Below are positions 33,337 to 56,239 of a DNA stretch of 64,000 bases, piece after piece. A model generated the notes under the pieces. The model saw only the letters and a list, made by a program, of their open reading frames with translations, did not search any database and had not been told where the DNA came from. Source of the stretch: Pseudomonadota bacterium (lineage in GTDB: Bacteria; Pseudomonadota; Alphaproteobacteria; Rickettsiales; UBA1997); the NCBI GenBank assembly GCA_040386195.1, contig JAZKFV010000003.1, positions 2,029 through 66,028 on the forward strand. The letters run 5' to 3'. Within the stretch, counting starts at the first letter, position 1; each line of letters begins with the position of its first letter. Position numbers and translations under genes: made by a program.

Positions 33337-33415
33337 AAATTGGTTGCTAAATTGACTTAATATCGTTAATTATTAACTTAACATTATTAATATCGCATCC
33401 AATTATAAAATTTCT

Positions 33416-33754: not shown

Positions 33755-33756
33755 AT

Positions 33757-34347: not shown

Positions 34348-34495
34348 ATATTGGCTTTAAAGCCAATTCTTGTTTTAAAAATGCTCAACAATTTAATTAA
34401 ATTTTAATCCAAATTTACTTTTATTAAATTTTGCCTAACATAAGGCGATTAGATTTTGGAAGCTCAACTTATTTAGCAAATCAAACAAATCACAA

Positions 34496-35374: not shown

Positions 35375-35469
35375 TTTGTATAACAAATTTATAACTAAGA
35401 ACCTACTAACAAGTTCTTGCCATTATTTTTTTTAATGGATTGAGCATTTACATAATAACCTAATACAAA

Positions 35470-37785: not shown

Positions 37786-39815
37786 ACACTGCATTTGGCA
37801 AAATAAAAGATTGTATTGATAGTAATCAAAATTTTGTTCTTCAAGGTGGTGCTGGTAGTGGAAAAACAGAAACACTTAAACAGACTCTTGAATTCATATC
37901 AAAAAATTATCCCAATAAAAAAATAGCCTGCATAACCCACACAAATCTTGCCGCGGATGAAATCAAATCACGCGTTGGGGAAGAATACACAATCAGCACC
38001 ATACACTCATTTTTGAATGAATTTATTAAAAACTATAAGAAGAATTTACATAAAGTAATTTATGAGTTGTTTCGGTTAGATTCAATTGAGCGTCAAGGAA
38101 CTGAGAAATATACCAATGAAAAAGAGCAAAAAGAAAAAGAACATGAGAAATATAAGAAAGTATACGAAAAATATGCATCTTTTTTATATAAAATAACTAA
38201 AGAACGTATGCCTAAGGTTGAAGGCAAAAGAGATTATGATAAAAGTCCTGAGGTATTTAATACTATTTTGAATGAAAAGATTAATGTGTTAAATACTGAC
38301 ATATTTAGGCAAATTGAAGCTAGGGATTATAATCAGATTGAATATAATGATACAAGTTTTAATAGTTTTTATGACTTAACTTTCGGTCACGATGGTCTAT
38401 TGGATATAACATCACTTTTGTTTGAGAAATACCCAATTCTTGGAAAAATTTTGCAAGACAAATTTGATTGTATACTCATTGATGAATATCAAGATACTAA
38501 TGAGAAAACGATTAAAATATTTTTAGAGAAACTTTCAACTCCAGATAAAACCTTAATTGGTCTTTTTGGAGATTCTATGCAGGCAATTTATTCAGATGGT
38601 ATAGGTGATAACATACAAAAATATATTGATAACAAAGTTTTAACCAAAATAAATAAGGAAGATAATTATAGATGTTCACAGCAGGTCATAGATTTTATAA
38701 ATCCTCTACGAAATGATTCATTAAAACAGGAAGTCGCTTTTAAGAATAAACTTGATGGCACTATGGAAGTTTTTGAAGATAGACAAGGTAGATCGGAATT
38801 TTATTATATGCTCTATGATAATAAGCCAAATCGTAATAGCGATAAACCAGAAAAAGATCGTTATATACAATTTCTTAATGCCCTAATTTCAAGAGCAATA
38901 GGAGACAAAAAAGATTTTAGGCAATTAAAACTTACTAATAAATCAATTGCTTCTGATGCGGGGTTTGGGAATTTATATGAAATATTTGATGAACGTTTTA
39001 CGGATAACAAAGAAGCTATGGACAGGGAGTTGAGAAAATTACAGATTAGTAGTCTATTTGAATTATGTAGCGCATATTATCCTCACCCCAATTCTGGCTT
39101 ATCACACAATTATAACTTAGTTTTATCCAAACTTAAAAAACAAAAATTTATTCTTAAAAAAATATCTGACAAACTCAAAATAAAGAATGGATTTGATTTG
39201 ATAATAAATTCTGAGTTAGGAGTTATTGAAACAATTAATAAAGCGTTTGAGTTAGGTTTATTAAAAAAGTCAGAGCAATATTCGAGCTATATAGAACAAA
39301 AAGACAGATTCTTTGATGGATTGTCCAAAGACGATAATTTTAAGGGTTTTAAAAAGTTGTATTTAGAGGGTAAAAATACCTTAAATAGAATCAGCAATGA
39401 CTTGCCAGAATTGGATCAATATGATTTTAATGAGTTACAAAAGAGTGTAAAAAAGGAAATTTTTTATAATGCTCTTTTTTCCAACGAATTAAAATTCAAA
39501 GAAATTATAAATTACTTCAATTACCAAAATGAATACACCCAGTTCATTACGATGCACAAAACAAAAGGATCTGAGATAAACAATGTATTGGTAGTGTTGG
39601 AAGAATATTTTTGGGGTGAATATGACTTTAGATCTATTTTTTCTGATACTAATGATTTGGAAAAAAGATATAAAAATCAAAAATTATTTTATGTTGCGTG
39701 TTCAAGAGCAAAAAATAATTTAAAATGTGTCAGGCTTATTAATGGTGAAGAGGAAGAAAAAATGTTGTTAAAATATTTTACAGACGCAATTAAAATAGAT
39801 AATCTTATTATTTAA
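37767..39815 (+). CDS. gajB: UvrD/PcrA/Rep-like SF1 helicase, GajB-like (Gabija)
   Basis: Walker A LQGGAGSGKT, motif II ILIDEYQDTN, NYRCSQQV, TMHKTKGSE, YVACSRAK. Start set at the ATG at 37767, preceded by aaggaggg; the track start is 37731. Confidence 0.8.
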   Translation: MDSRAINTAFGKIKDCIDSNQNFVLQGGAGSGKTETLKQTLEFISKNYPNKKIACITHTNLAADEIKSRVGEEYTISTIHSFLNEFIKNYKKNLHKVIYELFRLDSIERQGTEKYTNEKEQKEKEHEKYKKVYEKYASFLYKITKERMPKVEGKRDYDKSPEVFNTILNEKINVLNTDIFRQIEARDYNQIEYNDTSFNSFYDLTFGHDGLLDITSLLFEKYPILGKILQDKFDCILIDEYQDTNEKTIKIFLEKLSTPDKTLIGLFGDSMQAIYSDGIGDNIQKYIDNKVLTKINKEDNYRCSQQVIDFINPLRNDSLKQEVAFKNKLDGTMEVFEDRQGRSEFYYMLYDNKPNRNSDKPEKDRYIQFLNALISRAIGDKKDFRQLKLTNKSIASDAGFGNLYEIFDERFTDNKEAMDRELRKLQISSLFELCSAYYPHPNSGLSHNYNLVLSKLKKQKFILKKISDKLKIKNGFDLIINSELGVIETINKAFELGLLKKSEQYSSYIEQKDRFFDGLSKDDNFKGFKKLYLEGKNTLNRISNDLPELDQYDFNELQKSVKKEIFYNALFSNELKFKEIINYFNYQNEYTQFITMHKTKGSEINNVLVVLEEYFWGEYDFRSIFSDTNDLEKRYKNQKLFYVACSRAKNNLKCVRLINGEEEEKMLLKYFTDAIKIDNLII

Positions 39816-40210
39816 TCTCGCACACTAGTTAGTATTTGTGATGCCGATTTATTAAATTCTGATTTGTAAAAACTAATCAATACGTTTTTATTTTTAAGCA
39901 TCAAACTTTTCTCTTAAATTCTTCAATCGCCAAAATTCGCTTCGATAATCAAAGAACCAAATCCCAAATCAAAACTAAAAATCCCCTACAAAAAACACGG
40001 CAAAGCCGAAAAAAATTGACACACCCAACGCACCTTTTTAAAGGTGATGTTATTTTTGAATGAATCCAGTAATTATAAGGCTCAAACTCAGTCTGCCAAT
40101 GTCTGTCAGATAAGTTTGGCTTTTGGCTGTCAATGGCAGTCATAAAAATTGTAATCGCTTTGAAGGCAGTATTGGCGTGGCTTTGTCTGGCGGTCGTTTG
40201 GCTGACAAAG

Positions 40211-42997
40211 TTAACGGCTAAAATCCATTCCTTTGCTTTGATGGGTGGGTTGTGGTTGATGGTGAATTTGTGGTTGGTTTGGTTTGTGGTGATGTTGGTT
40301 AATGATTTGATGATTCTGATCTTTTAAATTTTGATGTTCTTTGGCACTAAGATCAAAGCCAGTTTCTTTTTTAATTTGGTTGATGGATTTGGTTTTATCG
40401 TCAGTAATAATAATCGCCCTTTCTTTTGCCCTTGAAATTTCTACATAAAAATTCTTTTGATTGGTCAGGTTCTTTCTGGTGCTGTCAACTATGGCAATCA
40501 CATTATTGCAAGTTAAACCTTGCGCTTTGTGAGTGGTGATGGCGTAAGAATGATCAAGATGTTTGCTGGCGTTGGAATTGTGGTTTAAATTGATTTTTCT
40601 GCCGTCTTCAAGGGTGATGGATATTTGGTTATTATCTAGGTGGTTAATTGTGCCTTGGCTGGAATTGAGAATTTTTAAATCCTCAATGCTTCTGGTAAAA
40701 GCGATTTTATCGCCTTCTTTAAAATTCCTGCTTTTTTTGGCAAAAACTTCAAAATAAATTTTATCAGCTTTGCCTTTAATTTGCTTGGGGTTAAAGGCGG
40801 TTAATTTTTCAGTTGTTAAGTTTTTAACAATTAATTGATTGGTTTTGGCTTCAATATTGATGATTTGGCAATAATCATTTTTCTTGATGTTTAAGTAATC
40901 ACGGTTTTTGTTGAAGAGCAAAATATTGCCCTTTTCAAAATGCGCGGTTCTGGTTTTTTGTTGTTCGGTTAAGTTGGTGTTTTCATAGATGGTGTGGGGT
41001 TGCTGATTTATTCTGGCTTGGTTTAGAGAATCGCTAATCATTTGATTAATCTTGATTCTGTCTTCATTGGCAGGCGCAATAATTAAAGTGGATTTTCTTT
41101 GTGCTTCAGATAGCAGCATAAATTCCTTAATTACTTTGCTGATAATTTCTTCTCTGGTTTCTTTGATGTTGATTTCAATTTTATCAAAGGCTTTGGCAAT
41201 GTCGTAATTGATTGCATCATAAACCGCTGATTTAAGATTGTTGTTATTTTGCCTGATAATTTCAGTCATCTGGGCGGTTGGCATTCCATTTTGTTGTAGT
41301 AAAGCAAAGGGAATTCCAGCTTCAACTGCGGGCAATTGATTTTTATCGCCAACCAAAACTAATCTAAAATTAAGCTGTTTGGATATGGTTAAAAGATTCT
41401 GCATTTGATGGTTAGAAATCATACTGGCTTCGTCCACTATCACTATTTTATCTCTAAATTCTCTTGCCATAATTTCTCTGCCGTGCGTTGTGCCTCTGCC
41501 TTTGGCAACGCCATCATATTGATTAAGAAACTTTTGTAAGGTGATTGATTTAATACCAGATTCCTGTTCTAAATTTTTGGTGGCAACTCCAGTTGGTGAA
41601 AGACCAATAAAATTATAATCCTGTTTTTTAACAATTTGATTGGCGCATTTAAGCATAAAGGTTTTGCCCACCCCAGCATATCCTTGAATGCCAATCACCC
41701 GATCTTTGCTGGTTAATATCAGTTCAACCGATTGCTTTTGCCCTAAGTTAAGATTGGTTAAAAGATCAGAATATTTATCAATATCATTAATTATTGGCTG
41801 ATGCTGATTTTTGCCATCTTGCATTATTTTGATAATGTTTAACTCTTGGTTTAGTAATGATTGAGTGGTGAAACTATCTGGCAATTGGTGATGCTTGCTT
41901 GGCAATAATTCTTTCTTCTGAATTAAGTGATTAATTTGGTGGTTAATATCTTCCAATCTAACTTGTGATAATTTGTCATTTAAAGCGGTGATGATTAGCT
42001 CTTGTTTGCTGAAAATTGTTTTGCGTTCTGATAAATGAAGAATGGCATAGTTAACTGCTTCTTTGGCAATTTCATTATTAGATTTTTGTTGATCAGAAAA
42101 TATTGGGTTTGGTTGTGGTGGAATAATTTGATGGGATAATTTTTGTTGGTGATAAAAATTATCGAGCTTTTCTTGCCAGATTGCTTTTAAATTATTTGGT
42201 TCTTGCTTTTTGCTTCTAGTAATTAAGGCTGCCTTTTCTAACTGCTTTTGACTGGCATTTTCTCCTGCTTTTTGTTTTATCTCTTTTGATCTGGTGCTAA
42301 AAATTTCAAGCAATTCGTGATTGACATTTTTTAACTCAAAAACTGCATCATTTCCTTTTATAATAATTTCATAGCCAAGCTGTTTAATCTGATAAGCCAG
42401 CTCACTTCTATAAATCGCCCCCAAAAGTTTTTTGTTATCGTAAATATCATCAAAAAAGGCTGATTTCCATTTGCCATTATTATCCCTAGTTGCATTGGCA
42501 ATAACGCAGTGAGTGTGAAGTTGTGGGTCAAGATTTCTGCTGGTGTGATGCTCAAAAGTTGCGGCGATTAAATTATTGGTGGTGATGGTGTTGGTGATTC
42601 CATCTTGTTTAATTCTAGTTTTAAGATAATTCTTTTCAATCTCATCAAGAGTTGATTTAACAGCTATTTTATGCGCTTCAATCAGTCTTTTGTCATTATA
42701 AATCAAAGCCATAATTGAAACTGACTTTGGTGCTGAAAAAGTTAAATCTCTTCCTGAATCATGAATGAACTCGCCATCTTTTATCAAGCCGATTTGCTTG
42801 CCATTTGGCAAATTGCCAGCGAGGATTTTCTCAAATATTTTTGGATTAACTTCGCCTGAAAGACCCAAGATTTTAGCACCTTTGCCATACCATCCGCTTA
42901 ATTGTTGGTGGTTTGGATCATCTTTGGCATAATAATCATCTTTAGCAAAATAATGTGATGCACCTTTAGAGTTTTTGATTTTGCTAACTGACAACAT
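40211..42997 (-). CDS. MobF-family (TrwC/TraA-like) conjugative relaxase with C-terminal SF1 helicase
   Basis: 928 aa. N-terminal MLSVSKI...ASHYF..DDYYAKD....SGWYGKGA..LGLSG, histidine triad HHTSRNLDPQLHTHCVIAN, helicase Walker A GYAGVGKTF and VVDEASM. His/Gln/Pro-rich tail. Confidence 0.88.
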   Translation of the reverse strand: MLSVSKIKNSKGASHYFAKDDYYAKDDPNHQQLSGWYGKGAKILGLSGEVNPKIFEKILAGNLPNGKQIGLIKDGEFIHDSGRDLTFSAPKSVSIMALIYNDKRLIEAHKIAVKSTLDEIEKNYLKTRIKQDGITNTITTNNLIAATFEHHTSRNLDPQLHTHCVIANATRDNNGKWKSAFFDDIYDNKKLLGAIYRSELAYQIKQLGYEIIIKGNDAVFELKNVNHELLEIFSTRSKEIKQKAGENASQKQLEKAALITRSKKQEPNNLKAIWQEKLDNFYHQQKLSHQIIPPQPNPIFSDQQKSNNEIAKEAVNYAILHLSERKTIFSKQELIITALNDKLSQVRLEDINHQINHLIQKKELLPSKHHQLPDSFTTQSLLNQELNIIKIMQDGKNQHQPIINDIDKYSDLLTNLNLGQKQSVELILTSKDRVIGIQGYAGVGKTFMLKCANQIVKKQDYNFIGLSPTGVATKNLEQESGIKSITLQKFLNQYDGVAKGRGTTHGREIMAREFRDKIVIVDEASMISNHQMQNLLTISKQLNFRLVLVGDKNQLPAVEAGIPFALLQQNGMPTAQMTEIIRQNNNNLKSAVYDAINYDIAKAFDKIEINIKETREEIISKVIKEFMLLSEAQRKSTLIIAPANEDRIKINQMISDSLNQARINQQPHTIYENTNLTEQQKTRTAHFEKGNILLFNKNRDYLNIKKNDYCQIINIEAKTNQLIVKNLTTEKLTAFNPKQIKGKADKIYFEVFAKKSRNFKEGDKIAFTRSIEDLKILNSSQGTINHLDNNQISITLEDGRKINLNHNSNASKHLDHSYAITTHKAQGLTCNNVIAIVDSTRKNLTNQKNFYVEISRAKERAIIITDDKTKSINQIKKETGFDLSAKEHQNLKDQNHQIINQHHHKPNQPQIHHQPQPTHQSKGMDFSR

Positions 42998-43005
42998 AAT
43001 CAGCC

Positions 43006-43326
43006 TTATTTAATTCTTACCTGCGATTCTTTTAAACCATTGGCAGTCATTATTTTTAATATTTCTTCATCAATGATTTTTTTGTCATTTGCAGATAAAG
43101 CTAATTTTAAATTCATCATTCCTCTAATTGCACCAACGCAGTAGCTGATTGATTTTAGCGTTTTAAATTCAAAAGAATTTTGCTCAATTTGCGGTGCATC
43201 AAAAAATATTCTTTCTCTTATATAAAGTGCCAAATCCATATTGCTGGATTTGGCTTGCTTGGATAAATCCCTATATTGTTCTTCAGAAAATCTGATGGTG
43301 ATTCTTCTGTTTTTGCTGTTGGTCAT
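43006..43326 (-). CDS. mobC: MobC-like relaxosome accessory protein (ribbon-helix-helix)
   Basis: 106 aa. RRITIRFSEEQYRDLSKQAKSSNMDLALYIRERI, directly upstream of the relaxase on the same strand. Confidence 0.65.
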   Translation of the reverse strand: MTNSKNRRITIRFSEEQYRDLSKQAKSSNMDLALYIRERIFFDAPQIEQNSFEFKTLKSISYCVGAIRGMMNLKLALSANDKKIIDEEILKIMTANGLKESQVRIK

Positions 43327-43341
43327 ATTGCAAAAATTAAG

Positions 43342-43971
43342 TTAAAAAAAGTCGTCGTTAATTTGTAATTTATTATCTGGTTTGATGCTTTGCTGAGCCC
43401 TGTTTTCTTTGGGTTTTATAGCGGGTTTTTGATTAATTTGACTTGATGATAAATTTTCTTTTGGCTCTATAAATTCCACTTTTTTTAACCAAGGATAAGG
43501 CAAGTTTGAATCCGATATTAACTTGTAACTGCCTCTTGTGGTGTGGCAAATTTCATAATTTTTTGGCTGAGGTTTGATGATTTGTTTTAGCGTTGGCGCT
43601 GGTTCTGAAACGGTGTTTATATTATTGGTATTAGGTGAATTAATTTGTGATGAGAAATGATTATCTTTTACAATTGATGTTGTGATTTCCTGATAATGCG
43701 TAGCTTCGCTAATGTTTTTAGGCTGGATGTCGGTTTGAAAAAATTTAGAAAAGAATTCAAAACAAGATAATATTACATCTAATAAAAACCCAAGAACCTC
43801 TATTATTATTGCAAAAAAAGAGGGGATTATTTCTTTAAAAAAATATGGTATTTCCTCACATAAAACTTCAAACAAAAACACCAATATTTTTCCGAAAAGC
43901 AATATCACTTTTTCAATAACAAACACTACTATGATCAGAGGTATGGCTAGAAGTGTAAATATAATACCCAC
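43342..43971 (-). CDS. Hypothetical membrane protein
   Basis: 209 aa. The N-terminal ~85 aa are strongly hydrophobic (2-3 TM helices), and the C-terminal half is polar and Pro/Asn-rich. Confidence 0.45.
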   Translation of the reverse strand: MGIIFTLLAIPLIIVVFVIEKVILLFGKILVFLFEVLCEEIPYFFKEIIPSFFAIIIEVLGFLLDVILSCFEFFSKFFQTDIQPKNISEATHYQEITTSIVKDNHFSSQINSPNTNNINTVSEPAPTLKQIIKPQPKNYEICHTTRGSYKLISDSNLPYPWLKKVEFIEPKENLSSSQINQKPAIKPKENRAQQSIKPDNKLQINDDFF

Positions 43972-44203
43972 TTTTCTTGATATTTTAAGTAATAAAACTC
44001 CTGCTATCGCAGGATTTAACTAATTACCGCCAATGCTGACTTTGTACATTTATCAGTTTTTTGGTTAGCAATAATTTATAAGTAATTGTTGAGTGAACAC
44101 TAATCACTTAAAAATAAATTGTCAATTAGTTAGTTAACGATTAAATAATATTTTTTGATAAGGTGAAAATTTGTTAGAAATTTAAAGCGAACAACCCCAA
44201 TTC

Positions 44204-44779
44204 TTATTTCTTAGGCTTACACTCTTTATCTTTTTCCTTAATAAATTTCTTTTCTTTTTCATCCATTTCCAACTTCCATTTCTTTTTAACTTCTTGCCAT
44301 AATTTTATATATTCGCAATTGTATTTTGTATTTGACGGAAGCCAGTCGGATGGGTCTTTATCGGCTTTGGAGCGGTTGGCGGATTTATCTACAGCAATTA
44401 AAGTTTCGGGATTAGTTAAATCATTGGCATATTGCATCTTTTTTTCTTTATCCCATTTATTGCCGCCACTTCTATCAACTTCTTTTAACGGAACAAAATG
44501 ATCAACATCTAAATCATTGGGATTGGTGAAATATTTATCGGTATAAGGGTCATACCATTTTCCTTTTACAACTTCACAACTTTTTTTATCTAAAGTTGGT
44601 TTTTCTAGGCTTTCTATAATCAAAACCTCTGTTCTGGTATCTTGGCAATCTTTGTCGGCATCAATCCAGTGTTTATAATCAGTTCGAGAATAACTGCCGT
44701 AGATTATTGAAGCTGAAACGGTGGCAACAATTGCGGCTTTGGTGAGTTTGGATTTAGTGGTGGAGGGTTTGGCTGTCAT
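44204..44779 (-). CDS. Secreted or anchored DUF1524-type (His-Me finger/HNH) nuclease
   Basis: 191 aa. N-terminal signal/anchor. DVDHFVPLKEVDRSGG...LIAVDKSANRSKADKDPSDWLP matches the GmrSD C-terminal/DUF1524 motif. Confidence 0.7.
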   Translation of the reverse strand: MTAKPSTTKSKLTKAAIVATVSASIIYGSYSRTDYKHWIDADKDCQDTRTEVLIIESLEKPTLDKKSCEVVKGKWYDPYTDKYFTNPNDLDVDHFVPLKEVDRSGGNKWDKEKKMQYANDLTNPETLIAVDKSANRSKADKDPSDWLPSNTKYNCEYIKLWQEVKKKWKLEMDEKEKKFIKEKDKECKPKK

Positions 44780-44953
44780 TTAATTCAGTTTAGTTGGTTA
44801 AAAAAATTGAATTGTCAATTTTGTGAGAATACAATCTAGCGGATGATATTTAAACCAAAAAAATAAATATGTTATATTGGTTTAATCTCTTAGGTTTTTT
44901 AATTTGTATCTAGTCATATAAACCACCTGATTCTGTTTTAAATTTTTTTAAAC

Positions 44954-46033
44954 ATGAGCTATACAATACCACAACTCCCACTAAACAAAGATTTCGACAC
45001 CAAAGAAATTCTAAAAAAACTTACAAAAGCTCACCAAGCTCTTGCTGAACTTAAAGGCGTTGCCGCCATTATTCCAAATCAGGGAATTTTACTAAATACT
45101 TTATCGCTTCAAGAAGCAAAAGACAGTTCGGCAATTGAAAATATTATTACCACTCACGATGAATTATACAAAAGTGATGCCTCTACTAATAGCTTCATAA
45201 CCCTTGCTACCAAAGAAGTTTATAATTATACCGCCGCTCTTAAAAGAGGTTTTGAAGAAATCAAAAGAACCGAACTCTTAACTAATCACACCATTTTAGA
45301 GATTCAGGCAAGATTAGAAGAAAATGATGCTGGTTTCAGAAAATTACCGGGCACAGCTTTAAAAAATGATAGAACTGGTGAAATAGTTTATATGCCGCCA
45401 CAAGATGCAGCTCAAATTCAATCTTTGATGTCTAACCTAGAAAATTTTTTAAATGATGACGAAATTTCTGACTTAGATCCTCTAATTAAAATGGCAATAA
45501 TTCACCACCAGTTTGAAACTATCCACCCCTTTTATGATGGAAATGGCAGAACTGGAAGAATCATCAATATTTTATATTTAGTTAAGCAAAAACTTTTAAA
45601 TAGCCCGATTCTTTATTTATCTCGCTATATCAACAAAAATAAAGCCGACTATTACAATCTTTTGCAAAAAGTCCGCAATCAAAATGCTTGGGAGGAATGG
45701 GTTTTATTTATGCTTGAGGGCGTAGAACAAACTTCACGCCAAACTACCTATTTGATTCAGAGCATGAAGAATATCATGCAGAATCACAAAGAAAAAATGC
45801 GGAAAGAATTACCAAAAATTTACAGTCAGGACTTAATCAATGTTATTTTTGGGCATCCTTACACAAAAATAGATTTTGTTGTTAGAGAAATTGGAGTTAG
45901 CCGTCTCACTGCAACCCGTCATTTAAATGAGCTGGTTAAAATTGGGTTAATGAAAAAAGAAAAGAAGGGTCGTGAAAGTTATTATATAAACATCGAACTT
46001 TTTAAACTCTTTAGCAGTTCAAATTTGGAATAA
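44954..46033 (+). CDS. Fic family protein (class II, auto-inhibited) with a C-terminal winged helix
   Basis: 359 aa. Canonical HPFYDGNGRTGR, an N-terminal inhibitory-helix-like SSAIEN ((S/T)xxxE(G/N)), and a C-terminal wHTH (VSRLTATRHLNELVKIGLM). Confidence 0.88.
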   Translation: MSYTIPQLPLNKDFDTKEILKKLTKAHQALAELKGVAAIIPNQGILLNTLSLQEAKDSSAIENIITTHDELYKSDASTNSFITLATKEVYNYTAALKRGFEEIKRTELLTNHTILEIQARLEENDAGFRKLPGTALKNDRTGEIVYMPPQDAAQIQSLMSNLENFLNDDEISDLDPLIKMAIIHHQFETIHPFYDGNGRTGRIINILYLVKQKLLNSPILYLSRYINKNKADYYNLLQKVRNQNAWEEWVLFMLEGVEQTSRQTTYLIQSMKNIMQNHKEKMRKELPKIYSQDLINVIFGHPYTKIDFVVREIGVSRLTATRHLNELVKIGLMKKEKKGRESYYINIELFKLFSSSNLE

Positions 46034-46248
46034 ATCTATACATATTTTTTTAATATGTATAGAAAAGTGGCTTTTTCTATACATATCATCTGGGTTATAT
46101 ATAGAAAACTGAGCTTTTCTATACTTTGCCTAAATAATCATACCTCACAAAAAAACATCAAAAAATCTGCGGATAAAAAGATTTTTTATACTGGCTTTGG
46201 GTCAATATCGATAAGTCTAAAAGACCTACAAAACAACCAAACCAAAAC

Positions 46249-46473
46249 TTATCCCAAAACCCTTCTATTAAAAATCTCCCGAACATTCTTAATATTGCGC
46301 TCCACCTCTTCAATCTGCCCAAGAATATTGGCGATTTGTTCAGCAGAGAAATATTTAGGTATTTGGTTAAAATATCTCAAATCTTCCACCAGCGCATTTG
46401 CTGATTTTCTGATTAGATGAAAGCCGATGATGATTTCGTTTTCTAAGTTTGAATTGAGGTTTTTTTCTGGCAT
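46249..46473 (-). CDS. Small conserved hypothetical protein (copy 1)
   Basis: 74 aa from MPEKNLNSNLENEIIIGFHLIRKSAN.... About 85% nucleotide identity to 55546..55770. Divergently paired with an XRE gene. Confidence 0.6.
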   Translation of the reverse strand: MPEKNLNSNLENEIIIGFHLIRKSANALVEDLRYFNQIPKYFSAEQIANILGQIEEVERNIKNVREIFNRRVLG

Positions 46474-46619
46474 AGATTTGGGGGTTTGAGTTTTTAAAAT
46501 ATTGCCTTTTGGCTCAGCAAATTTATTATCAAGATTGAACAATATAAATGATAACAAACAAAATTATCTTAAATAGATAAATTTATCTAGTCAAGATAAT
46601 TTTATTAACTCTTAACAAA

Positions 46620-46877
46620 ATGATTTACAACTATCATATCCGCCTTGCAAGATCAGCTTTAAACCTTACCCAAACAGAGCTAGCAGAAAAATCTGGCGTT
46701 TCTGCCCCAACTATTAAAAACATTGAATTATCAAAACCATATGAGGAACTTTCAAACAGCAAGATAGTAATAATGGCTTTACTAAGATTTTTTGAAGATA
46801 GTGGTATTAAATTTATTGATGAGAAAGATTTTATTGGAATAAAAATTGGTAAGAAAATTGTCAAGCAGAAGCTTTAG
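46620..46877 (+). CDS. XRE-family HTH protein (partner of small protein copy 1)
   Basis: 85 aa. RLARSALNLTQTELAEKSGVSAPTIKNIE is an HTH motif. Confidence 0.7.
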   Translation: MIYNYHIRLARSALNLTQTELAEKSGVSAPTIKNIELSKPYEELSNSKIVIMALLRFFEDSGIKFIDEKDFIGIKIGKKIVKQKL

Positions 46878-47005
46878 TTTTAAGGGATGAATAAAGCAGG
46901 AGTTATGTATACTGTCCCAGAATTACCCAGAATGATGAATGGCATCTAGATTCTTTAGAATAGGCCACAGATATAACAGTTAACTTGAATATCTAAATAT
47001 TTTCT

Positions 47006-48589
47006 CTACTGCTGTGATGGATAGCACGATTTTGCTCTAAGTCTCTTTAGATATAAAATATCCTTTGTGAAAGGTACATTAAAATACGGTCTGTGATAGC
47101 CTTTGGCTGTTATAAGAAACGGTGGTTTATAATTTGATCCAATTTCAATAATGATGCAATCATGTTCCCTCATTATAAAATTGTTGTTCTCGTAGATTAT
47201 AGTTCCGCTTTTATCAGATATTAAAAATTTCTCGAAGAATGATTCTTCTTTTTCAATTTCAGCGAGAGCAATTTTTGAAACTGATTTCTGAATTAAATGT
47301 TGATAGGTATTTAATGATTCAGAAAAAACCGTCTCTCCAAAGTAACGCCATTTTTTATCTGAATAAAGATAGATATGAGGACAACTCCCACACTCCCAAA
47401 ATCTATCCACAATAAATAGATTATTATTATCAAACTCATGGATTTTAATTAGTTGTCCGATCGCGCTTCCCTCCACATGATATTCTAAATGCTTTACAGC
47501 ACTCATAGAACCAAATTGAAGCTCTTGCCCCAATTTAGGTCCTTTAGATACATAGTTTAAACTTTGATGATATATCCAATCATCTTTAACTGGAAAATCT
47601 GAAACAGGATTAGACTCAGAATCAAAGTTTTCATTTTCGATAAATGCAAACTGTGGAATTACAACTACCTGATCTTTTTCTAATTTCACTTTTGGCATTT
47701 CTTGCAACTTACCAGTTTCCTGAAGAGCCACATAAGAAAGTTCATAGGAAAAGTCATTTTTGGTAATTGAATCTCCATAAGATTGAAGCGTTACTAGCTT
47801 ATCAGATACATTCTTAATAATTAAAAAAGTAAAAGCGATTTGCTTCAAAATAAACGATTCTGATATTAAATTCGGACCATTTCCACAGAGTACCCAATCA
47901 TAAGATACATCTGCAACTTGCTCTAACTTAGCACCATTTTTAACAAGGTTAATTGCAATTGGATCATCAATATATTTTATATCGCTTTCTTCTATATCTC
48001 GAAATGGAGCAAAGTTGTATTTTTCCTTCTCGCTTAATTCTCTATTAGGAATTCCTTTTATATTAGGCCTCTTATCAAAAAGATTCTTTATAGTCTCAAA
48101 TTCATTTCCAGCACAGACAACAGATCGATTACCTTTATAAAGTTTTGATAGTCGTTCGAAAAACTTAAAGGTTTCGTTTTTATAAACGATCACATTTTTT
48201 TCTGGAATTCCTGTGTAGTTTCCATTCACTATTTCCGTTAAAATTTCCCAGTTTTTCGTTTTTAAATGTTTGATTAAAAGTTCTTGAGCTGATTGTGCTG
48301 GCGTTTTCACGCCGCGAGTTTTTACTTGTTCGTACCAATTTGTTCTCGCTTTCTTTAGTTCTCCTACAGAGTACTTAGTTCCTCTTGGATGTTTTGGGTT
48401 ATAATGCCCTGCATTAGCATGACAATCGAAGCAAAGCGGAATTGCATTTTCGAATGAGTCATCACCACCTTGTTCCTTTGGAATCAGATGGTGGATTTCA
48501 ATACCAACTCCACAATATCTTTGGCATACGCAGCAATGCCTAGCACTAGATACCAAAACTTCCTCTTTTACTTTTGATGAAAAAGACAT
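47006..48589 (-). CDS. HNH endonuclease domain protein with a ~430-aa uncharacterised C-terminal region
   Basis: 527 aa. CCVCQRYCGVGIEIHHLIPKEQGGDDSFENAIPLCFDCH is a ββα-Me HNH motif. The rest has no recognised motif. Confidence 0.7.
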   Translation of the reverse strand: MSFSSKVKEEVLVSSARHCCVCQRYCGVGIEIHHLIPKEQGGDDSFENAIPLCFDCHANAGHYNPKHPRGTKYSVGELKKARTNWYEQVKTRGVKTPAQSAQELLIKHLKTKNWEILTEIVNGNYTGIPEKNVIVYKNETFKFFERLSKLYKGNRSVVCAGNEFETIKNLFDKRPNIKGIPNRELSEKEKYNFAPFRDIEESDIKYIDDPIAINLVKNGAKLEQVADVSYDWVLCGNGPNLISESFILKQIAFTFLIIKNVSDKLVTLQSYGDSITKNDFSYELSYVALQETGKLQEMPKVKLEKDQVVVIPQFAFIENENFDSESNPVSDFPVKDDWIYHQSLNYVSKGPKLGQELQFGSMSAVKHLEYHVEGSAIGQLIKIHEFDNNNLFIVDRFWECGSCPHIYLYSDKKWRYFGETVFSESLNTYQHLIQKSVSKIALAEIEKEESFFEKFLISDKSGTIIYENNNFIMREHDCIIIEIGSNYKPPFLITAKGYHRPYFNVPFTKDILYLKRLRAKSCYPSQQ

Positions 48590-48662
48590 TATTTTTTCTA
48601 TAAATTTTATATGAATTACTGCATAATTCTACCTTAATTAAATCGTTTGTGAAGTATTTGTA

Positions 48663-49358
48663 ATGGCATCAAAAAAATTTTTAAACAAAACATGCGTTTA
48701 TTGCAGAGTTCCTAGCTCTTCATCAACTAGAGATCACGTTTTTGCCGAATCATTTTTTGAAGGGGTGGTGAAACCAAGCAAATTACCTCAAGCTCCAGCA
48801 TGTAGCATATGCAATACTACCAAATCTAATTTAGAAACATATCTAGCAGCTGTTCTTCTCTTCGGATCAAGGCTTAAGAATTCAAAAAAAATCCTTTCTG
48901 AATCAGCTATAAAAAGATTAAGAAAAAATCATAAATTGCATAAAGAATTGGTTGTCGGCTCAACTACCAAATGGAAATTGAATCCGGCGAATGGATTAAT
49001 TTTGCCAGCCATAGAACATATTCCTTTCGATAATGAGAAATTTACCAAATGGCTGATTTATATTGTTCAGGGATTATCTTTCTGTTATTTTAAAACAATT
49101 CTTTTTGACAATGATGGTATTGGTATCAATATGTTACGAGCAATTGATAATCGTTGCTTGATATACGATGAAATTTTTAAACGATGTCCGATAGTTGAAG
49201 AAAATTTATCAGAAGTTTTTTGCTTTAGAGGGGTAGTAGCAGAAAATATAATAGTATGGGAATTGAAAATTCTTGGAGGATTAACTTTTGATGAAAGTAA
49301 TAAAGCTCCTGATAGAATTTTTGGAGTTGTAACAAAAAACCAGTTACAAAAATCTTAG
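48663..49358 (+). CDS. HNH-like (CxxC...DH...CxxCN) protein
   Basis: 231 aa. CVYCRVPSSSSTRDHVFAESFF....APACSICNTTKSN. Divergent from the 527-aa HNH gene, with a 73-bp spacer. Confidence 0.55.
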   Translation: MASKKFLNKTCVYCRVPSSSSTRDHVFAESFFEGVVKPSKLPQAPACSICNTTKSNLETYLAAVLLFGSRLKNSKKILSESAIKRLRKNHKLHKELVVGSTTKWKLNPANGLILPAIEHIPFDNEKFTKWLIYIVQGLSFCYFKTILFDNDGIGINMLRAIDNRCLIYDEIFKRCPIVEENLSEVFCFRGVVAENIIVWELKILGGLTFDESNKAPDRIFGVVTKNQLQKS

Positions 49359-49441
49359 AGGGCACAAATGGGGGCATATAAGATTTTTCTAAAACTCTAA
49401 GTCATTTATTTATAAGCCTTTAAAGCCCACAATATGTACGT

Positions 49442-49496
49442 CGTCACTCCGCCACCCAATCATTTTAAGAAGTCCAAAAACATCCAATTAGACCTT
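49442..49496 (+). repeat. attR: direct repeat of the tRNA-Asp 3' end plus flank
   Basis: cgtcactccgccacccaatcattttaagaagtccaaaaacatccaattagacctt matches 30105..30160 apart from one missing C. Confidence 0.9.
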
Positions 49497-49546
49497 AAAA
49501 GTAAATTCCTCATCCATATTAAGATTTATTTATTTTTCCGCGCGGT

Positions 49547-50149
49547 TTATAAGTTCCGAATAACTTGTTCAACCTTCCCCACAATAAAAACTTGATCCTC
49601 CGCGGAAAGTAGAATTGTTGGATGTTTTTTATTGAAAGATTTAAGCAAAACATTTCCATAAAGATCTTTAAAATATTCCTTAATAACCGCCACTCCATTG
49701 ATTGAGCAAACCACCATATCACTATTAAAAAATTCCTGCTTTTTCTGCGCGATCACCAAATCTCCTTCATAAATATTGGGTTCCATAGAATCACCTTTAG
49801 CTTTGATCATAAATGCATTCTCAGTTTTAAATTTTATTAATTGCGACGGCATAGGAATGCGATCTTGCGGCTCGCCATCAATAAAACAGCCTTCCGCCCC
49901 GCATCTGGCTTCACCATAAAAATTAATATAGCTAATCGGCTTTTCCGGAATAGTTAAAACTTGATAATCAGATTGGTTGTATTCATTTCGTTTTAAATAA
50001 CCTTTTTTCTCAAGCTGTTTTAAATGATGCAAAACTAAATTATTCGAGGAAGCATTAACTTCCCGAACCATCTGCGCCAAGGAAAGTGGATTGTTCTGAT
50101 TTTTTTCTAATATTGAAAGTAACTGTTCTTGTTTTGGATGAAGTTTCAT
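49547..50149 (-). CDS. LexA/CI-like repressor (wHTH + S24 peptidase)
   Basis: 200 aa. N-terminal LexA-type wHTH (LVLHHLKQLEKKGYLKRN). C-terminal KAKGDSMEPNIYEGDLVIAQK with a downstream Lys. Confidence 0.75.
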   Translation of the reverse strand: MKLHPKQEQLLSILEKNQNNPLSLAQMVREVNASSNNLVLHHLKQLEKKGYLKRNEYNQSDYQVLTIPEKPISYINFYGEARCGAEGCFIDGEPQDRIPMPSQLIKFKTENAFMIKAKGDSMEPNIYEGDLVIAQKKQEFFNSDMVVCSINGVAVIKEYFKDLYGNVLLKSFNKKHPTILLSAEDQVFIVGKVEQVIRNL

Positions 50150-50219
50150 TGATTTGAATAATAGTTTTGGTTTTCTTTTTGGTTTTAATCTTTGGAAAAC
50201 TTATATCAAATAAATTTGT

Positions 50220-50238
50220 AGTCAACAAATCGTTGACT
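50220..50238. promoter_or_regulatory. Candidate operator palindrome between the S24 repressor and the RhuM gene
   Basis: agtcaac-aaatc-gttgact is a perfect 7-bp inverted repeat in the 173-bp divergent intergenic region. Confidence 0.35.
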
Positions 50239-50322
50239 TATTTTTATGGAATAATAGCATAAATTTTGATTCAAATAAATTAGAATTTTAACCACCTTAT
50301 CAAAAACCAAAATCAAATCACA

Positions 50323-51345
50323 ATGAGCATTCAATTAGAAAAAACCGAGTTCTTATTATACAAATCAGATAACGGCGAGATTAAAATTGATGTCTTTTTG
50401 AAAGATGAAAATATCTGGCTGACGCAAAAGAAAATGGCGGAGCTTTTTGATACTTCTTCCGATAACATTAGCCTACATTTAAAAAATATTTATGCCGATA
50501 GAGAATTAGAAGAAAAATCAACTACCGAGGATTTCTCGGTAGTTCAAAATGAAGGTTCTCGTTCAGTAAAAAGATTAATTAAATTCTATAATCTAGACAC
50601 CATTATTGCCGTCGGTTATCGGGTTAATTCTAAAAGAGCCACGCAGTTTCGCATTTGGGCAACTAAGGTTTTAAAAGAGTTCATCATCAAAGGCTATGTG
50701 ATGGATGTTGAAAGACTAAAAAACCCTCACCCAGAATTTGGCAAAGATTATTTTGATGAACAGCTAGAAAAGATCCGCGATATTCGCTCAAGTGAACGCA
50801 GATTTTATCAAAAGATCACTGATATTTATTCACAGTGCAGCATCGATTACGACAAAGATTCACCAATCACCCAAGATTTCTTCGCCACCGTTCAAAATAA
50901 ACTTCACTTTAGCATCACCGGGCAAACCGCGGCAGAAATTATAAGTTCACGAGCTAATCATAAAAAGAAATATATGGGGCTTACCAATTGGAAAAATTCA
51001 CCAAATGGAGAGGTTAGAAAATCAGACGTTACAATTGCCAAAAATTATTTAAATGAAAAAGAATTAAAATCCCTAAATCGCATCGTTTCAATGTATCTAG
51101 ACTACGCCGAAGAGCAAGCTGAAAACAAAACCGCAATGACAATGAAAAATTGGGTTAAAAAACTTGATGCTTTTTTACAATTTAACGAAAAAGAAATTTT
51201 GCAAGATAACGGCAAAATATCAGCCCAGATTGCTAAATCTCTAGCGGAAGAGGAATTTGAGAAGTTTAGAACAATTCAAGATCAGAAATTTGAAAGTGAT
51301 TTTGATAGAAGGATTAAGAAGTTATTGGTGAAAGATAAAAAATAA
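50323..51345 (+). CDS. RhuM-family protein
   Basis: 340 aa. FLLYKSDNGEIKIDVFLKDENIWLTQKKMAELF......ISLHLKNIY...VKFYNLDTIIAVGYRVNSKRATQFRIWATKVLKEFIIKGY is the RhuM family signature. Confidence 0.75.
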   Translation: MSIQLEKTEFLLYKSDNGEIKIDVFLKDENIWLTQKKMAELFDTSSDNISLHLKNIYADRELEEKSTTEDFSVVQNEGSRSVKRLIKFYNLDTIIAVGYRVNSKRATQFRIWATKVLKEFIIKGYVMDVERLKNPHPEFGKDYFDEQLEKIRDIRSSERRFYQKITDIYSQCSIDYDKDSPITQDFFATVQNKLHFSITGQTAAEIISSRANHKKKYMGLTNWKNSPNGEVRKSDVTIAKNYLNEKELKSLNRIVSMYLDYAEEQAENKTAMTMKNWVKKLDAFLQFNEKEILQDNGKISAQIAKSLAEEEFEKFRTIQDQKFESDFDRRIKKLLVKDKK

Positions 51346-55545: not shown

Positions 55546-55782
55546 CTACCCCAAAACCCTCTTATTAAAAATCTCCCGAACATTTTTAATATTACGCTCC
55601 ACCTCTTCAATCTGCCCAAGAATATTAGCAATTTGCTGGGCAGAAAAATATTTAGGGATTTGGTTAAAATATTTTAAATCATCCAATAACGAATTGGCCG
55701 ATTTTCTGATTAAATGAAAGCCGATGATTATTTCGTTTTCTAGATTGGGGTTTAGGTTTTTTTCGGGCATGGGTTTGTTCAT
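55546..55782 (-). CDS. Small conserved hypothetical protein (copy 2)
   Basis: 78 aa (or 74 from MPEKNL at 55770). Paralogue of 46249..46473. Confidence 0.6.
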   Translation of the reverse strand: MNKPMPEKNLNPNLENEIIIGFHLIRKSANSLLDDLKYFNQIPKYFSAQQIANILGQIEEVERNIKNVREIFNKRVLG

Positions 55783-55999
55783 TTAGTTGTATAGTTATTG
55801 AAAGCATTATACTAAATATTGCTTTTTAGCATTACGAACAGATAATAAATTTGGTTCTAACAGCTAGTTACAAGCAAAAAACACGGTTGCGCTGTCTCTT
55901 AGCTATCCTTAATTATAAGTTAGTTATACTAATGCAAACAATAGATAATATATCTAAAGTAGTAGTATAACTATTATTAGTCAATAGAAAATAATAGTT

Positions 56000-56239
56000 A
56001 TGATAAATAAAGTAATAATCACCAACAAACAATGCCGCGCGGCAAGAGAATTGTTGGAATGGAAACAAAACGACCTCGCAGAAAAATCAAAAATATCATC
56101 TGGCACAATTGCAGATTTTGAAAGAGGAGTTAGAGAATTGAGAGTTTCAACTTTGGAAAAGTTGATAGCTACTTTTGAAAAAGCTGGGATTAGGTTTGAG
56201 AATAATAGTGTGAAATATAGTGTTGAGCTTTTGAAGTGA
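56000..56239 (+). CDS. XRE-family HTH protein (partner of small protein copy 2)
   Basis: 79 aa. QCRAARELLEWKQNDLAEKSKISSGTIADFERG is an HTH motif. Its C-terminus (FEKAGIRFEN) parallels FEDSGIKFID in 46620..46877. Confidence 0.7.
   Translation: MINKVIITNKQCRAARELLEWKQNDLAEKSKISSGTIADFERGVRELRVSTLEKLIATFEKAGIRFENNSVKYSVELLK

What the first reader, a model, noticed from the sequence alone, without database searches (positions are those of the whole stretch)
46249..46877. Duplicated small-protein/XRE divergent module placed in front of two different cargo cassettes
The 74-aa protein MPEKNLN.NLENEIIIGFHLIRKSAN...YFNQIPKYFSA.QIANILGQIEEVERNIKNVREIFN+RVLG occurs twice, at 46249..46473 and 55546..55770. 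By eye the copies share about 85% nucleotide identity.

Each copy is divergently paired with a small XRE HTH gene (46620..46877 and 56000..56239). The XRE partners are far more diverged, at roughly 30% amino-acid identity.

Each module sits immediately upstream of a candidate effector cassette: the divergent HNH pair at 47006..49358, and the ASCH/PIN-GNAT/kinase operon at 56327..58844.

This pattern suggests a portable regulatory or sensor module that switches adjacent cargo, comparable in logic to the regulator genes that accompany many defence systems. The two copies are also long enough to act as recombination substrates between the island and the neighbouring block.
Basis: seen in the sequence. 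Interest (0 to 1): 0.65.

Follow-up and report, generated by a model that had tools for sequence, protein, structure and literature searches.

The report
Controller-plus-hairpin module fronting defence cassettes
A small gene pair, made of a restriction-system-type controller repressor and a divergent 74-residue two-helix protein of unknown family, occurs twice in this Rickettsiales genome and recurs in relatives in front of many different anti-phage cassettes, so it looks like a reusable control unit for mobile immune genes.

Summary
The 74-aa ORF occurs at 46249-46473 and 55546-55770 (both on the minus strand). The copies share 86% nucleotide and 68/74 amino-acid identity, with dN/dS 0.05 and dS 0.86. 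This is a real, strongly constrained protein, not a recent duplication, and only the CDS is shared.

Each copy faces a small XRE gene. The two XREs are 31% identical to each other. Both are 35-40% identical over their full length to the solved R-M controller protein C.Kpn2I. Each has its own unique perfect palindrome at or near its start codon.

In about 30 related loci, all freshwater Rickettsiales MAGs, the pair is nearly always intact. The cargo behind the XRE changes exactly at the XRE stop codon. Cargoes include type IIG, type III and type I R-M, a Gabija-like pair, DRT UG13, a SIR2-like gene, an Mrr-helicase and PDC-M11.

The small protein is an orphan helical hairpin. It does not co-vary with the XRE type. 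In sister modules its slot, promoter and first 11 codons belong to a sensor-less histidine kinase.

The XRE as an autoregulating controller is well supported. The hairpin as a trans-acting input or antagonist is inference. Copy A's HNH genes are not operonic with its XRE.

The parts
46249..46473 (-). Small gene, copy A: 74-aa helical-hairpin protein of an orphan family
   Evidence: dN/dS 0.047 against copy B. 55 homologue clusters, none annotated. AF2 model with helices 8-37 and 44-73, pLDDT 87. No Pfam, NCBIfam, PADLOC, PHROG, PDB or BFVD match.
46474..46619 (.). Shared control region A. It holds two perfect TTATCT-N5-AGATAA operators at 46564-46580 and 46583-46599, which form a 50-bp composite palindrome at 46557-46606, 14 nt before the XRE-A ATG.
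   Evidence: These are the only perfect sites in the 64 kb. Four sites with at most 1 mismatch were found against 0.58 expected. The palindrome is conserved in L008/L009.
46620..46877 (+). XRE-A: 85-aa C.Kpn2I-like controller-type HTH protein
   Evidence: HTH_3 at 3.5e-7. 35% identity to C.Kpn2I (PDB 4YBA) over residues 7-74. Orthologues in L008 (87%), L003 and L004.
47006..48589 (-). 527-aa HNH-domain protein, convergent with XRE-A. It is an adjacent cargo gene but not operonic with the XRE.
   Evidence: PF01844 HNH at 7e-8, residues 19-60. Orientation.
48663..49358 (+). 231-aa protein with a weak HNH-like N-terminus; the last gene before attR
   Evidence: PHROG 2214 HNH endonuclease at 7e-4; no Pfam hit.
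49449..49505 (+). attR of the 19.3-kb island. It is a 57-nt direct repeat of 30113-30169, which begins in the last 6 nt of tRNA-Asp. Copy A lies inside the island and copy B outside it.
   Evidence: 48 nt identical, 96% identity over 57 nt.
55546..55770 (-). Small gene, copy B
55771..55999 (.). Shared control region B. A perfect palindrome AACTATTATT-N11-AATAATAGTT at 55969-55999 abuts the XRE-B ATG. A TATAAT box and a CTAAA..TTTAG inverted repeat lie near the small-gene end.
   Evidence: The palindrome is the only match in the window, against 0.04 expected.
56000..56239 (+). XRE-B: 79-aa C.Kpn2I-like controller-type HTH protein, leading the cargo operon
   Evidence: HTH_3 at 5.9e-10. 40% identity to C.Kpn2I. 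36-43% identity to HTH genes of phiCbK-like Caulobacter phages.
56327..56746 (+). Cargo B gene 1: ASCH-domain protein, PDC-M11B
   Evidence: PADLOC PDC-M11B at 1.3e-33; Pfam ASCH.
56743..58284 (+). Cargo B gene 2: PIN-like plus GNAT protein, PDC-M11A. It overlaps gene 1 by 4 nt.
   Evidence: PADLOC PDC-M11A at 5.4e-115. Pfam Acetyltransf_1 and a weak PIN_12 match.
58284..58844 (+). Cargo B gene 3: P-loop (adenylate-kinase-like) protein. It overlaps gene 2 by 1 nt.
   Evidence: AAA_17 at 4.9e-19, NF003122 at 1.4e-19, weak PADLOC VakA match.

Best explanation
The window carries two independently assembled copies of a mosaic control module. This module is typical of mobile defence islands in freshwater Rickettsiales.

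Component 1 is a small XRE protein of the C.Kpn2I / alphaproteobacterial PraR-RtrA type. By homology it most likely binds as dimers to the palindrome(s) at or next to its own start codon. In that way it would autoregulate, and set the expression of, the genes that follow it. In copy B these are the PDC-M11-like ASCH / PIN-GNAT / kinase operon. In copy A the original cargo appears to have been replaced, and the XRE now stands alone beside two HNH genes. The two XREs have different operators, so the two switches should not cross-talk.

Component 2 is the divergent 74-aa gene. It encodes a strongly constrained two-helix hairpin, probably a dimeric four-helix bundle, and is transcribed from the other side of the same control region. 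It occupies an exchangeable partner slot. In sister modules that slot holds a sensor-less histidine kinase with the same promoter and the same first 11 codons. The hairpin tracks the host lineage rather than the XRE subtype. It therefore most likely acts in trans on something common to all modules: a conserved surface of this XRE family (anti-repressor logic, as in CinS-PraR or SinI-SinR) or a host component. In that role it would modulate when the cassette is switched on.

Shown: the anatomy, the purifying selection, the family placement of the XRE, the operators, the portability and the exact exchange breakpoints.

Inferred: repression by the XRE, control of the small gene by the XRE, and any activity of the hairpin.
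For: Small gene.
- It is a real CDS under purifying selection.

XRE family.
- The best PDB match is 4YBA (C.Kpn2I), E 3.4e-15, covering the C-terminal G-I/L-x-F extension as well as the HTH. Identity is 40% for XRE-B and 35% for XRE-A.
- C.Kpn2I is transcribed divergently from a gene it represses. It binds at the start of its own ORF. C.Kpn2I-like XREs are often not linked to R-M (PMC6237814).
- Unique perfect palindromes abut or lie near each XRE start codon.

Pair architecture.
- The divergent pair is present in 20 of 21 informative loci, plus L028 and L037.
- It persists without an adjacent integrase, for example L003/L010 between nrdB and rlmE, and L013 next to recN.

Cargo.
- Cargo exchanges exactly at the XRE stop codon.
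- The cargo lies on the XRE strand, ranging from a 17-nt overlap to a 114-nt gap.
- Cargoes are defence systems.

Partner slot.
- A histidine kinase sits in the same slot in L033-36, L040, L041-45 and the P0185 contig.
- It shares the intergenic region and the first ~40 nt of the ORF with the small-gene modules.

Precedent.
- A small-protein anti-repressor is known in this alphaproteobacterial XRE family: CinS-PraR (PMC4149787, PMC10688885). XRE-B hits the phiCbK-like phages that the second paper names.
Against: - There is no expression or binding data. No RNA run holds the locus.
- The hairpin does not co-vary with the XRE subtype. This argues against a specific one-to-one protein contact.
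- The hairpin has no detectable relative of known function by sequence or by fold.
- hhalign finds no homology between the hairpin and the DHp domain of the kinase that replaces it: probability 1%, aligning only residues 1-11.
- Copy A's XRE is followed by a convergent gene, so 'controller of the adjacent cargo' fails for that copy.
- Promoter scans are at chance level in this AT-rich DNA.
Confidence: 0.55

Rival explanations
1. The small gene is a backbone or anchor gene of the mobile elements and has no regulatory tie to the XRE. Under this reading, XRE-cargo cassettes are simply exchanged next to a conserved resident gene, which serves as a homologous flank. The hairpin has an element-level role, such as maintenance, excision or transfer control.
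For: - The small gene tracks the host lineage, not the XRE.
- L003 and L010 lie at the same chromosomal site. They differ in everything from the end of nrdB to 4 nt before the small-gene ATG.
- Cassettes also swap on the 3' side of the small gene: Fic in the window against AbiEi/AbiEii in L005, within 95%-identical flanks.
- In L001, L004, L008, L012 and L016 a tyrosine recombinase abuts its 3' end, followed by AlpA in L001 and L004. L040 shows the same backbone after the kinase.
Against: - The pair persists where no integrase is near (L003, L010, L013, L021, L024).
- The XRE-intergenic-small block is conserved as one unit at 79-94% in L001, L002, L007, L010, L019 and L024.
- Every XRE of this family whose upstream neighbour was recovered had a hairpin or a kinase facing it. 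This suggests the architecture itself is selected.
- No att-type duplication of the small gene was found.
Confidence: 0.25
2. The pair is a toxin-antitoxin-like addiction module that stabilises the islands. One of the two would act as the toxin and the XRE as the antitoxin/repressor, as in HipB- or HigA-type systems.
For: - The XREs give sub-threshold matches to HipB/Y4mF-type antitoxin models (TIGR03070, 1.6e-7 to 4.5e-8, far below the cutoff).
- The module sits among TA-like genes: Fic, AbiE and HEPN-NT.
- In L003 the pair survives after its cargo was deleted.
Against: - The genes are divergent, not co-transcribed.
- The hairpin matches no toxin or antitoxin family.
- There is no co-variation between the partners.
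- The hairpin is replaceable by a histidine kinase.
Confidence: 0.07
3. The hairpin is a stand-alone DHp-like (histidine-kinase dimerisation/phosphotransfer) domain. It would be a cut-down version of the kinase found in sister modules, acting on the same unknown signalling partner.
For: - It has the same slot, promoter and first 11 residues as the kinase.
- It is a two-helix hairpin of DHp length, with a His (H19) about 11 residues into helix 1, in an H-x-x-R-K-S context. The kinase has H-E-T-R-N-P at the matching place.
Against: - hhalign probability is 1%. There is no HisKA Pfam hit. hmmsearch and BLASTP are not significant.
- H19 is replaced by Y, Q, N or L in more distant members.
Confidence: 0.13

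Closest known systems
C.Kpn2I and C.Kpn2I-like controller (C) proteins of restriction-modification systems (PDB 4YBA; Klimuk et al. 2018, PMC6237814)
   Same: - Small XRE protein with the same full-length architecture, 35-40% identical.
- Gene transcribed divergently from a neighbour out of a shared control region.
- Palindromic site at or next to its own start codon.
- Carried on horizontally moving cassettes near tRNA and integrase genes.
- In relatives it leads type IIG, type III and type I R-M genes.
   Different: - In the window the cargo is not R-M: PDC-M11-like genes for copy B, HNH genes for copy A.
- The divergent neighbour is not a methyltransferase but an orphan 74-aa hairpin, or a sensor-less kinase in sister modules.
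- Operator sequences differ from the Kpn2I C-box.
- Regulation is untested.
PraR-CinS (Rhizobium) and SinR-SinI (Bacillus): XRE repressors antagonised by a small protein
   Same: A small XRE repressor plus a small helical protein that could relieve repression. XRE-B belongs to the alphaproteobacterial group that includes the phiCbK phage homologues discussed together with PraR, RtrA and CdxA.
   Different: - No sequence relation of the hairpin to SinI was found. CinS was not available to compare.
- cinS and sinI are not divergently paired with their repressor in this way.
- The hairpin does not co-vary with the XRE subtype.
- Binding is untested.
Regulator-led defence cassettes in general (BrxR/CapW WYL regulators, CapH-CapP); from my own knowledge, not checked here
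   Same: A compact transcription-factor gene placed in front of interchangeable immune operons on mobile islands.
   Different: The protein families differ: here an XRE of the C-protein type, with no WYL domain and no protease partner. There is also a second, divergent component with two alternative forms.
PADLOC candidate system PDC-M11 (cargo of copy B)
   Same: Both signature genes are present, in order and overlapping (PDC-M11B at 1.3e-33, PDC-M11A at 5.4e-115).
   Different: A third, translationally coupled P-loop kinase gene and an upstream XRE are attached.

Membership tests
C.Kpn2I-like controller / XRE family | Cro/C1-type HTH (HTH_3) domain | tested here: met
   PF01381 at 3.5e-7 for XRE-A and 5.9e-10 for XRE-B.
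C.Kpn2I-like controller / XRE family | Full-length similarity to C.Kpn2I, including the C-terminal extension after the HTH | tested here: met
   The profile of 12 module XREs against PDB gives 4YBA at E 3.4e-15, aligning profile positions 7-78 to chain residues 6-78. Pairwise identity is 40% and 35%.
C.Kpn2I-like controller / XRE family | Inverted-repeat binding site at or just upstream of, or inside, its own ORF start | tested here: met
   Copy B has a perfect 10-N11-10 palindrome ending at the base before the ATG. Copy A has two perfect 6-N5-6 palindromes 20-56 nt upstream of the ATG. Protein binding was not tested.
C.Kpn2I-like controller / XRE family | Genetic linkage to a restriction-modification system | tested here: not met
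   The window cargoes are PDC-M11-like genes and HNH genes. The feature is met in the relatives L001, L008, L017, L019, L024, L035 and L041. The proteins are therefore filed as C.Kpn2I-like XREs, not as R-M C proteins.
C.Kpn2I-like controller / XRE family | Demonstrated transcriptional control of the neighbouring genes | not testable with these tools
   No RNA runs hold the locus.
XRE repressor / small anti-repressor pair (SinR-SinI, PraR-CinS) | Small partner homologous to SinI or CinS | tested here: not met
   The hairpin gives no SinI hit, nor any other hit, in Pfam, NCBIfam or PDB sequences. No CinS sequence was available for a direct comparison.
XRE repressor / small anti-repressor pair (SinR-SinI, PraR-CinS) | Partner-specific co-evolution or physical binding | tested here: not met
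   XRE and hairpin identities are discordant across loci. Binding cannot be tested with these tools.
Type II toxin-antitoxin module | Two co-transcribed genes, one from a recognised toxin family | tested here: not met
   The genes are divergent. There is no toxin-family hit.
Histidine-kinase DHp (HisKA) domain | Profile similarity to HisKA or to the kinase that occupies the same slot | tested here: not met
   No HisKA hit. hhalign of A2 against A4 gives probability 1% and aligns residues 1-11 only. hmmsearch scores are negative.
Histidine-kinase DHp (HisKA) domain | Two-helix hairpin with an invariant phospho-accepting His in helix 1 | tested here: inconclusive
   The hairpin is predicted at pLDDT 87. 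H19 is invariant among the 30 close members but replaced in distant members.
PADLOC PDC-M11 (cargo B) | Adjacent PDC-M11A and PDC-M11B genes | tested here: met
   Scores of 5.4e-115 and 1.3e-33, with a 4-nt overlap between the genes.

The most novel reading that the evidence does not exclude
The divergent partner slot, filled by either the hairpin or a sensor-less histidine kinase, is a generic signal-input device. Together with a C-protein-type XRE it would form a plug-and-play 'sensor plus controller' cassette. Such a cassette could put any immune operon (R-M, Gabija-like, DRT, SIR2, PDC-M11) under the same infection- or host-state-dependent switch. The hairpin would then be a minimal DHp-like or anti-repressor element that has diverged beyond sequence recognition.
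Probability: 0.15. Interest if true: 0.8.

Novelty: new variant of a known kind. Interest (0 to 1): 0.55.

Why it matters
How bacteria keep costly or self-toxic immune genes silent until they are needed is known for only a few systems. How newly acquired cassettes are made safe on arrival is equally poorly understood.

This locus shows one compact control unit attached to at least nine unrelated defence cargoes in an under-studied clade, the freshwater Rickettsiales. The exchange breakpoints fall exactly at gene boundaries. A second component comes in two forms, an orphan hairpin or a bare kinase core.

If the partner slot is a signal input, this would extend controller-protein logic from R-M systems to immunity in general. 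It would also give a small two-gene switch that is easy to test.

If the partner is only a backbone gene, the locus remains a clean example of modular cassette exchange.

Tried and rejected
- Non-coding repeat or RNA element: rejected. Differences are biased to third codon positions, dN/dS is 0.047, and synonymous-site conservation is no higher in the first 12 codons than elsewhere.
- Recent duplication of the whole module: rejected. dS is 0.86, the flanks are unrelated and the XRE subtypes differ.
- Known family for the hairpin: none found in Pfam, NCBIfam, PADLOC, PHROGs, a PDB profile search, or Foldseek against PDB and BFVD. An exhaustive HMMER profile search found only 20 representative clusters among 1.84 billion proteins, with no informative fusions.
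- Class I Fic antitoxin for the neighbouring Fic gene: considered and dropped. That Fic protein carries its own Fic_N domain, and L005 has AbiE in the same place.
- Hairpin as the DHp domain of the replacing kinase: not supported by hhalign, hmmsearch, tblastn or BLASTP.
- att-type partial duplication of the small gene beyond the abutting integrase: none found.
- Conserved att-like motif at the cargo junction after the XRE stop codon: none seen.
- Transcription evidence: only DNA metagenome runs hold the sequence.
- Promoter and terminator scans: at chance level.
- A linker-fused AF2 'complex' of hairpin and XRE: not attempted.

Full report
OBSERVATION

The 74-aa ORF is present on the minus strand at 46249-46473 and 55546-55770. 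The copies share 194/225 nt (86.2%) and 68/74 residues. Of 31 differing bases, 22 are at third codon positions. NG86 gives dN 0.041, dS 0.858 and dN/dS 0.047.

This is a translated gene under strong purifying selection, and the two copies are old. Similarity is confined to the CDS: the 100 nt after the stop codon are 26% identical, and the repeat finder reports a 231-nt family. The longest identical run is 32 nt.

Each copy faces a small HTH_3 gene, at 46620-46877 and 56000-56239. These two are 31% identical to each other.

Copy B's XRE is followed after 87 nt by three overlapping genes. They match the PADLOC candidate system PDC-M11 (B at 1.3e-33, A at 5.4e-115), plus a P-loop kinase. Copy A's XRE is followed by a convergent 527-aa HNH protein and then a 231-aa protein with a weak HNH-like match. 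That arrangement is adjacent but not operonic.

SETTING

tRNA-Val and tRNA-Asp lie at 29868-30118. A 57-nt direct repeat (30113-30169 and 49449-49505; 48 nt identical) bounds a 19.3-kb integrative, mobilisable island. In order, the island carries:
- a P4-type integrase;
- an AlpA-like gene;
- an M78 peptidase;
- a HEPN/nucleotidyltransferase protein;
- an OLD-type ATPase plus a UvrD helicase (Gabija-like);
- a TrwC relaxase;
- a GmrSD_C nuclease;
- a Fic protein;
- module A and the HNH genes.

Module B lies 6 kb beyond attR. Between attR and module B are a LexA-like S24 protein, RhuM, a DUF4143 ATPase, a trypsin-like protease and a DUF350 protein. Core genes (ndk, rpsD, secF) resume at about 60.5 kb.

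Genome hits place the family in Rickettsiales MAGs. The window is found in a watershed metagenome.

THE XRE

A profile of 12 module XREs finds the solved controller protein C.Kpn2I (4YBA) as its best PDB match, at E 3.4e-15. The match covers the whole length, including the C-terminal G-I/L-x-F segment. Pairwise identities are 40% for XRE-B and 35% for XRE-A. Both are higher than the identity of A to B.

The family is large: more than 4,991 clusters at E below 1e-5. XRE-B also hits HTH genes of phiCbK-like Caulobacter phages and of Brevundimonas phage Bajun at 36-43%. McLaughlin et al. (PMC10688885) name phiCbK and Bajun among the phages that carry homologues of the RtrA/CdxA/PraR group. That my hits are those same genes is an inference.

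Klimuk et al. (PMC6237814) report four relevant points about C.Kpn2I:
- it is transcribed divergently from the methyltransferase gene that it represses;
- it binds at the start of its own ORF and acts there as a roadblock;
- C.Kpn2I-like XREs are often not R-M-linked;
- an XRE that binds its own gene suits horizontal transfer.

In the window, each XRE has its own unique perfect palindrome. XRE-A has two TTATCT-N5-AGATAA sites, 2 nt apart, at 46564-46599 (4 sites with at most 1 mismatch against 0.58 expected). XRE-B has AACTATTATT-N11-AATAATAGTT, ending at the base before its ATG (0.04 expected). Neither site recurs at the other copy. Two independent autoregulated switches are therefore the simplest reading.

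COMPARATIVE ANATOMY

The small protein has only 55 clusters at 90% identity. It has 20 representative clusters among 1.84 billion proteins. None is annotated.

In 20 of 21 related loci with enough upstream DNA, a divergent XRE of this family lies 100-250 bp upstream. The exception, L020, is a decayed copy.

Pairwise blastn shows that the conserved block runs exactly from the XRE stop codon to the small-gene stop codon. It is about 0.68 kb, at 79-94% identity among L001, L002, L007, L010, L019 and L024. Everything beyond the XRE stop is unrelated.

| Cargo behind the XRE | Loci |
|---|---|
| Type IIG-like R-M | L001, L008, L024 |
| Type III R-M | L017, L019 |
| OLD + UvrD | L002 |
| Mrr-helicase | L004 |
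| DRT UG13 reverse transcriptase | L010 |
| SIR2-like | L007 |
| RhuM | L013 |
| PDC-M11 | window copy B |

L003 keeps only the first ~60 nt of the L024-type cargo gene, which is a deletion scar.

Exchange also occurs at the other two boundaries:
- L003 and L010 lie at the same site, between nrdB and rlmE, in 96%-identical flanks. They differ in XRE subtype and cargo. The breakpoint is 4 nt before the small-gene ATG.
- L005 is 95% identical to window 41994-44771 and 91% identical over the small gene. It carries AbiEi/AbiEii where the window has Fic.

XRE and hairpin identities are discordant.

| Pair | XRE identity | Hairpin identity |
|---|---|---|
| L010 vs L003 | 39% | 97% |
| L010 vs L028 | 94% | 53% |
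| window A vs window B | 38% (global) | 91% |

THE HAIRPIN

AlphaFold2 with 30 sequences gives two long helices, 8-37 and 44-73, with mean pLDDT 87. No family, PDB sequence, PDB fold or viral fold matches.

Conserved polar residues lie on both helices (E13, H19, K23, D31, Q46, N49, E58, R65). H19 is lost in distant members.

THE PARTNER SLOT

When I looked up XRE homologues, several loci showed a ~220-aa sensor-less histidine kinase (HisKA + HATPase_c) in the place of the hairpin:
- L033/L034, leading DUF4238;
- L035/L036, leading type I R-M with Fic;
- the P0185 contig, leading DUF4062;
- L040, leading several genes, including an ankyrin-repeat protein and a Schlafen/AlbA_2-domain protein;
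- L041-45, leading an EcoRI-like methylase plus GmrSD_N-HNH.

This kinase family has at least 396 clusters, and every organism name the sources give for it is a Rickettsiales or Rickettsiaceae MAG.

blastn shows that L035's XRE, its intergenic region and the first 42 nt of the kinase gene match the XRE, intergenic region and first ~40 nt of the small gene in L002, L010 and L024, at 74-77%. The N-terminal peptide M-x-K-x-N-L-N-x-N-L-D/E is common to both protein families. Beyond residue 11 no homology is detectable: hhalign probability is 1%.

L040 shows the kinase near the same integrase-177 aa-AlpA backbone (one 147-aa gene lies between kinase and integrase) that follows the hairpin in L001 and L004. 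A 63-aa divergent partner in L037 is a distant hairpin homologue (13.7 bits).

The module therefore has three exchangeable parts: partner, XRE and cargo. The architecture is kept even where no integrase is near.

MECHANISM

Well supported by homology and operator placement: the XRE is an autoregulating controller of the genes on its strand.

Inferred: it also influences the divergent promoter, as C.Kpn2I does.

For the hairpin I commit to a trans-acting modulator or input of the switch. It could be an anti-repressor acting on a conserved surface of this XRE family, with CinS-PraR as a precedent in the same broad family (PMC4149787). Alternatively it could be an adaptor to a host component.

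Three arguments favour this reading: the pair is selected as a pair, the slot can hold a signalling enzyme, and the protein is highly constrained. The lack of co-variation with the XRE is real evidence against a specific contact. It keeps the backbone-gene rival alive at about 0.25.

VERDICT

This is a new variant of a known kind: controller-protein-led defence cassettes, here with an orphan or kinase partner and non-R-M cargo.

There is no functional data. The interest lies in the portability, the exact modular breakpoints and the hairpin/kinase alternation.

Noticed in passing
window 30113-49505: A 19.3-kb integrative mobilisable island sits at tRNA-Asp, bounded by a 57-nt direct repeat (30113-30169 and 49449-49505). 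It carries a P4-type integrase (30720-31898), an AlpA-like gene (~33.2 kb), an M78 peptidase (33757-34347), a HEPN/nucleotidyltransferase protein (34496-35374), a Gabija-like OLD ATPase plus UvrD helicase (35470-39815), a TrwC relaxase (40211-42997, minus strand), a GmrSD_C nuclease (44204-44779, minus strand) and Fic (44954-46033).
   Followed up: partly
L041-L045 (about 9.3-kb contigs from several samples): These contigs have the same gene content but rotated start points. Their terminal direct overlaps equal the assembler k-mer (141 nt in L041). This indicates a ~9.2-kb circular element. It carries the kinase-XRE pair, an EcoRI-like methylase, a GmrSD_N-HNH nuclease, a DUF8370/8371 protein, a large serine recombinase and a tyrosine recombinase.
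   Followed up: partly
L033-L036, L040-L045 and the HK family: A family of ~220-aa histidine kinases with no sensor or membrane domain. It has at least 396 clusters, and all source names are Rickettsiales MAGs. In every context examined the kinase lies divergent from a C.Kpn2I-like XRE that leads defence genes. No response regulator is adjacent.
   Followed up: partly
L005:336-2316 vs window 44772-46240: In an otherwise ~95%-identical element, the Fic gene of the window is replaced by an AbiEi (DUF6088) / AbiEii pair. The breakpoints lie at the GmrSD_C gene and 8 nt past the small-gene stop codon.
   Followed up: yes
L003:4000-4130 (downstream of its XRE): Only the first ~60 nt of the type IIG-like R-M gene seen in L024 and L008 remain. 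This is a deletion scar showing that cargo can be lost while the XRE-hairpin pair is kept.
   Followed up: partly
Intergenic regions of L001, L002, L010, L011, L024 (about 80-110 nt upstream of the small-gene ATG); weaker in window 55870-55900: A conserved element CAGGCAAACCGyTTTTTCTGCCTG lies in the middle of the type-B control region. It has a 6-7-bp stem and, on the XRE-sense strand, is followed by a T-run, so it looks like a terminator or attenuator. A separate conserved palindrome, CTAAATA-N7-TATTTAG, overlaps the putative -35 of the small gene. Their roles are unknown.
   Followed up: no
window 49547-51345: Immediately after attR lie a LexA-like protein (LexA_DNA_bind + Peptidase_S24, minus strand) and a divergent RhuM-family gene. 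RhuM also follows an XRE in L013.
   Followed up: no
window 59010-59366: Two tandem 21-nt repeats (59016-59057) lie at the start of an ORF whose product ends in a Cys/Gly-rich tail (CCSHHGGVCGCGCCDGSS...). It sits between the PDC-M11 cassette and an ankyrin-repeat gene (59591-60511).
   Followed up: no
L027:6359-6886 and L013:5352-5510: Some modules carry two tandem XRE genes, or an XRE fragment behind the first XRE. This suggests repeated cassette insertion at the same junction.
   Followed up: no
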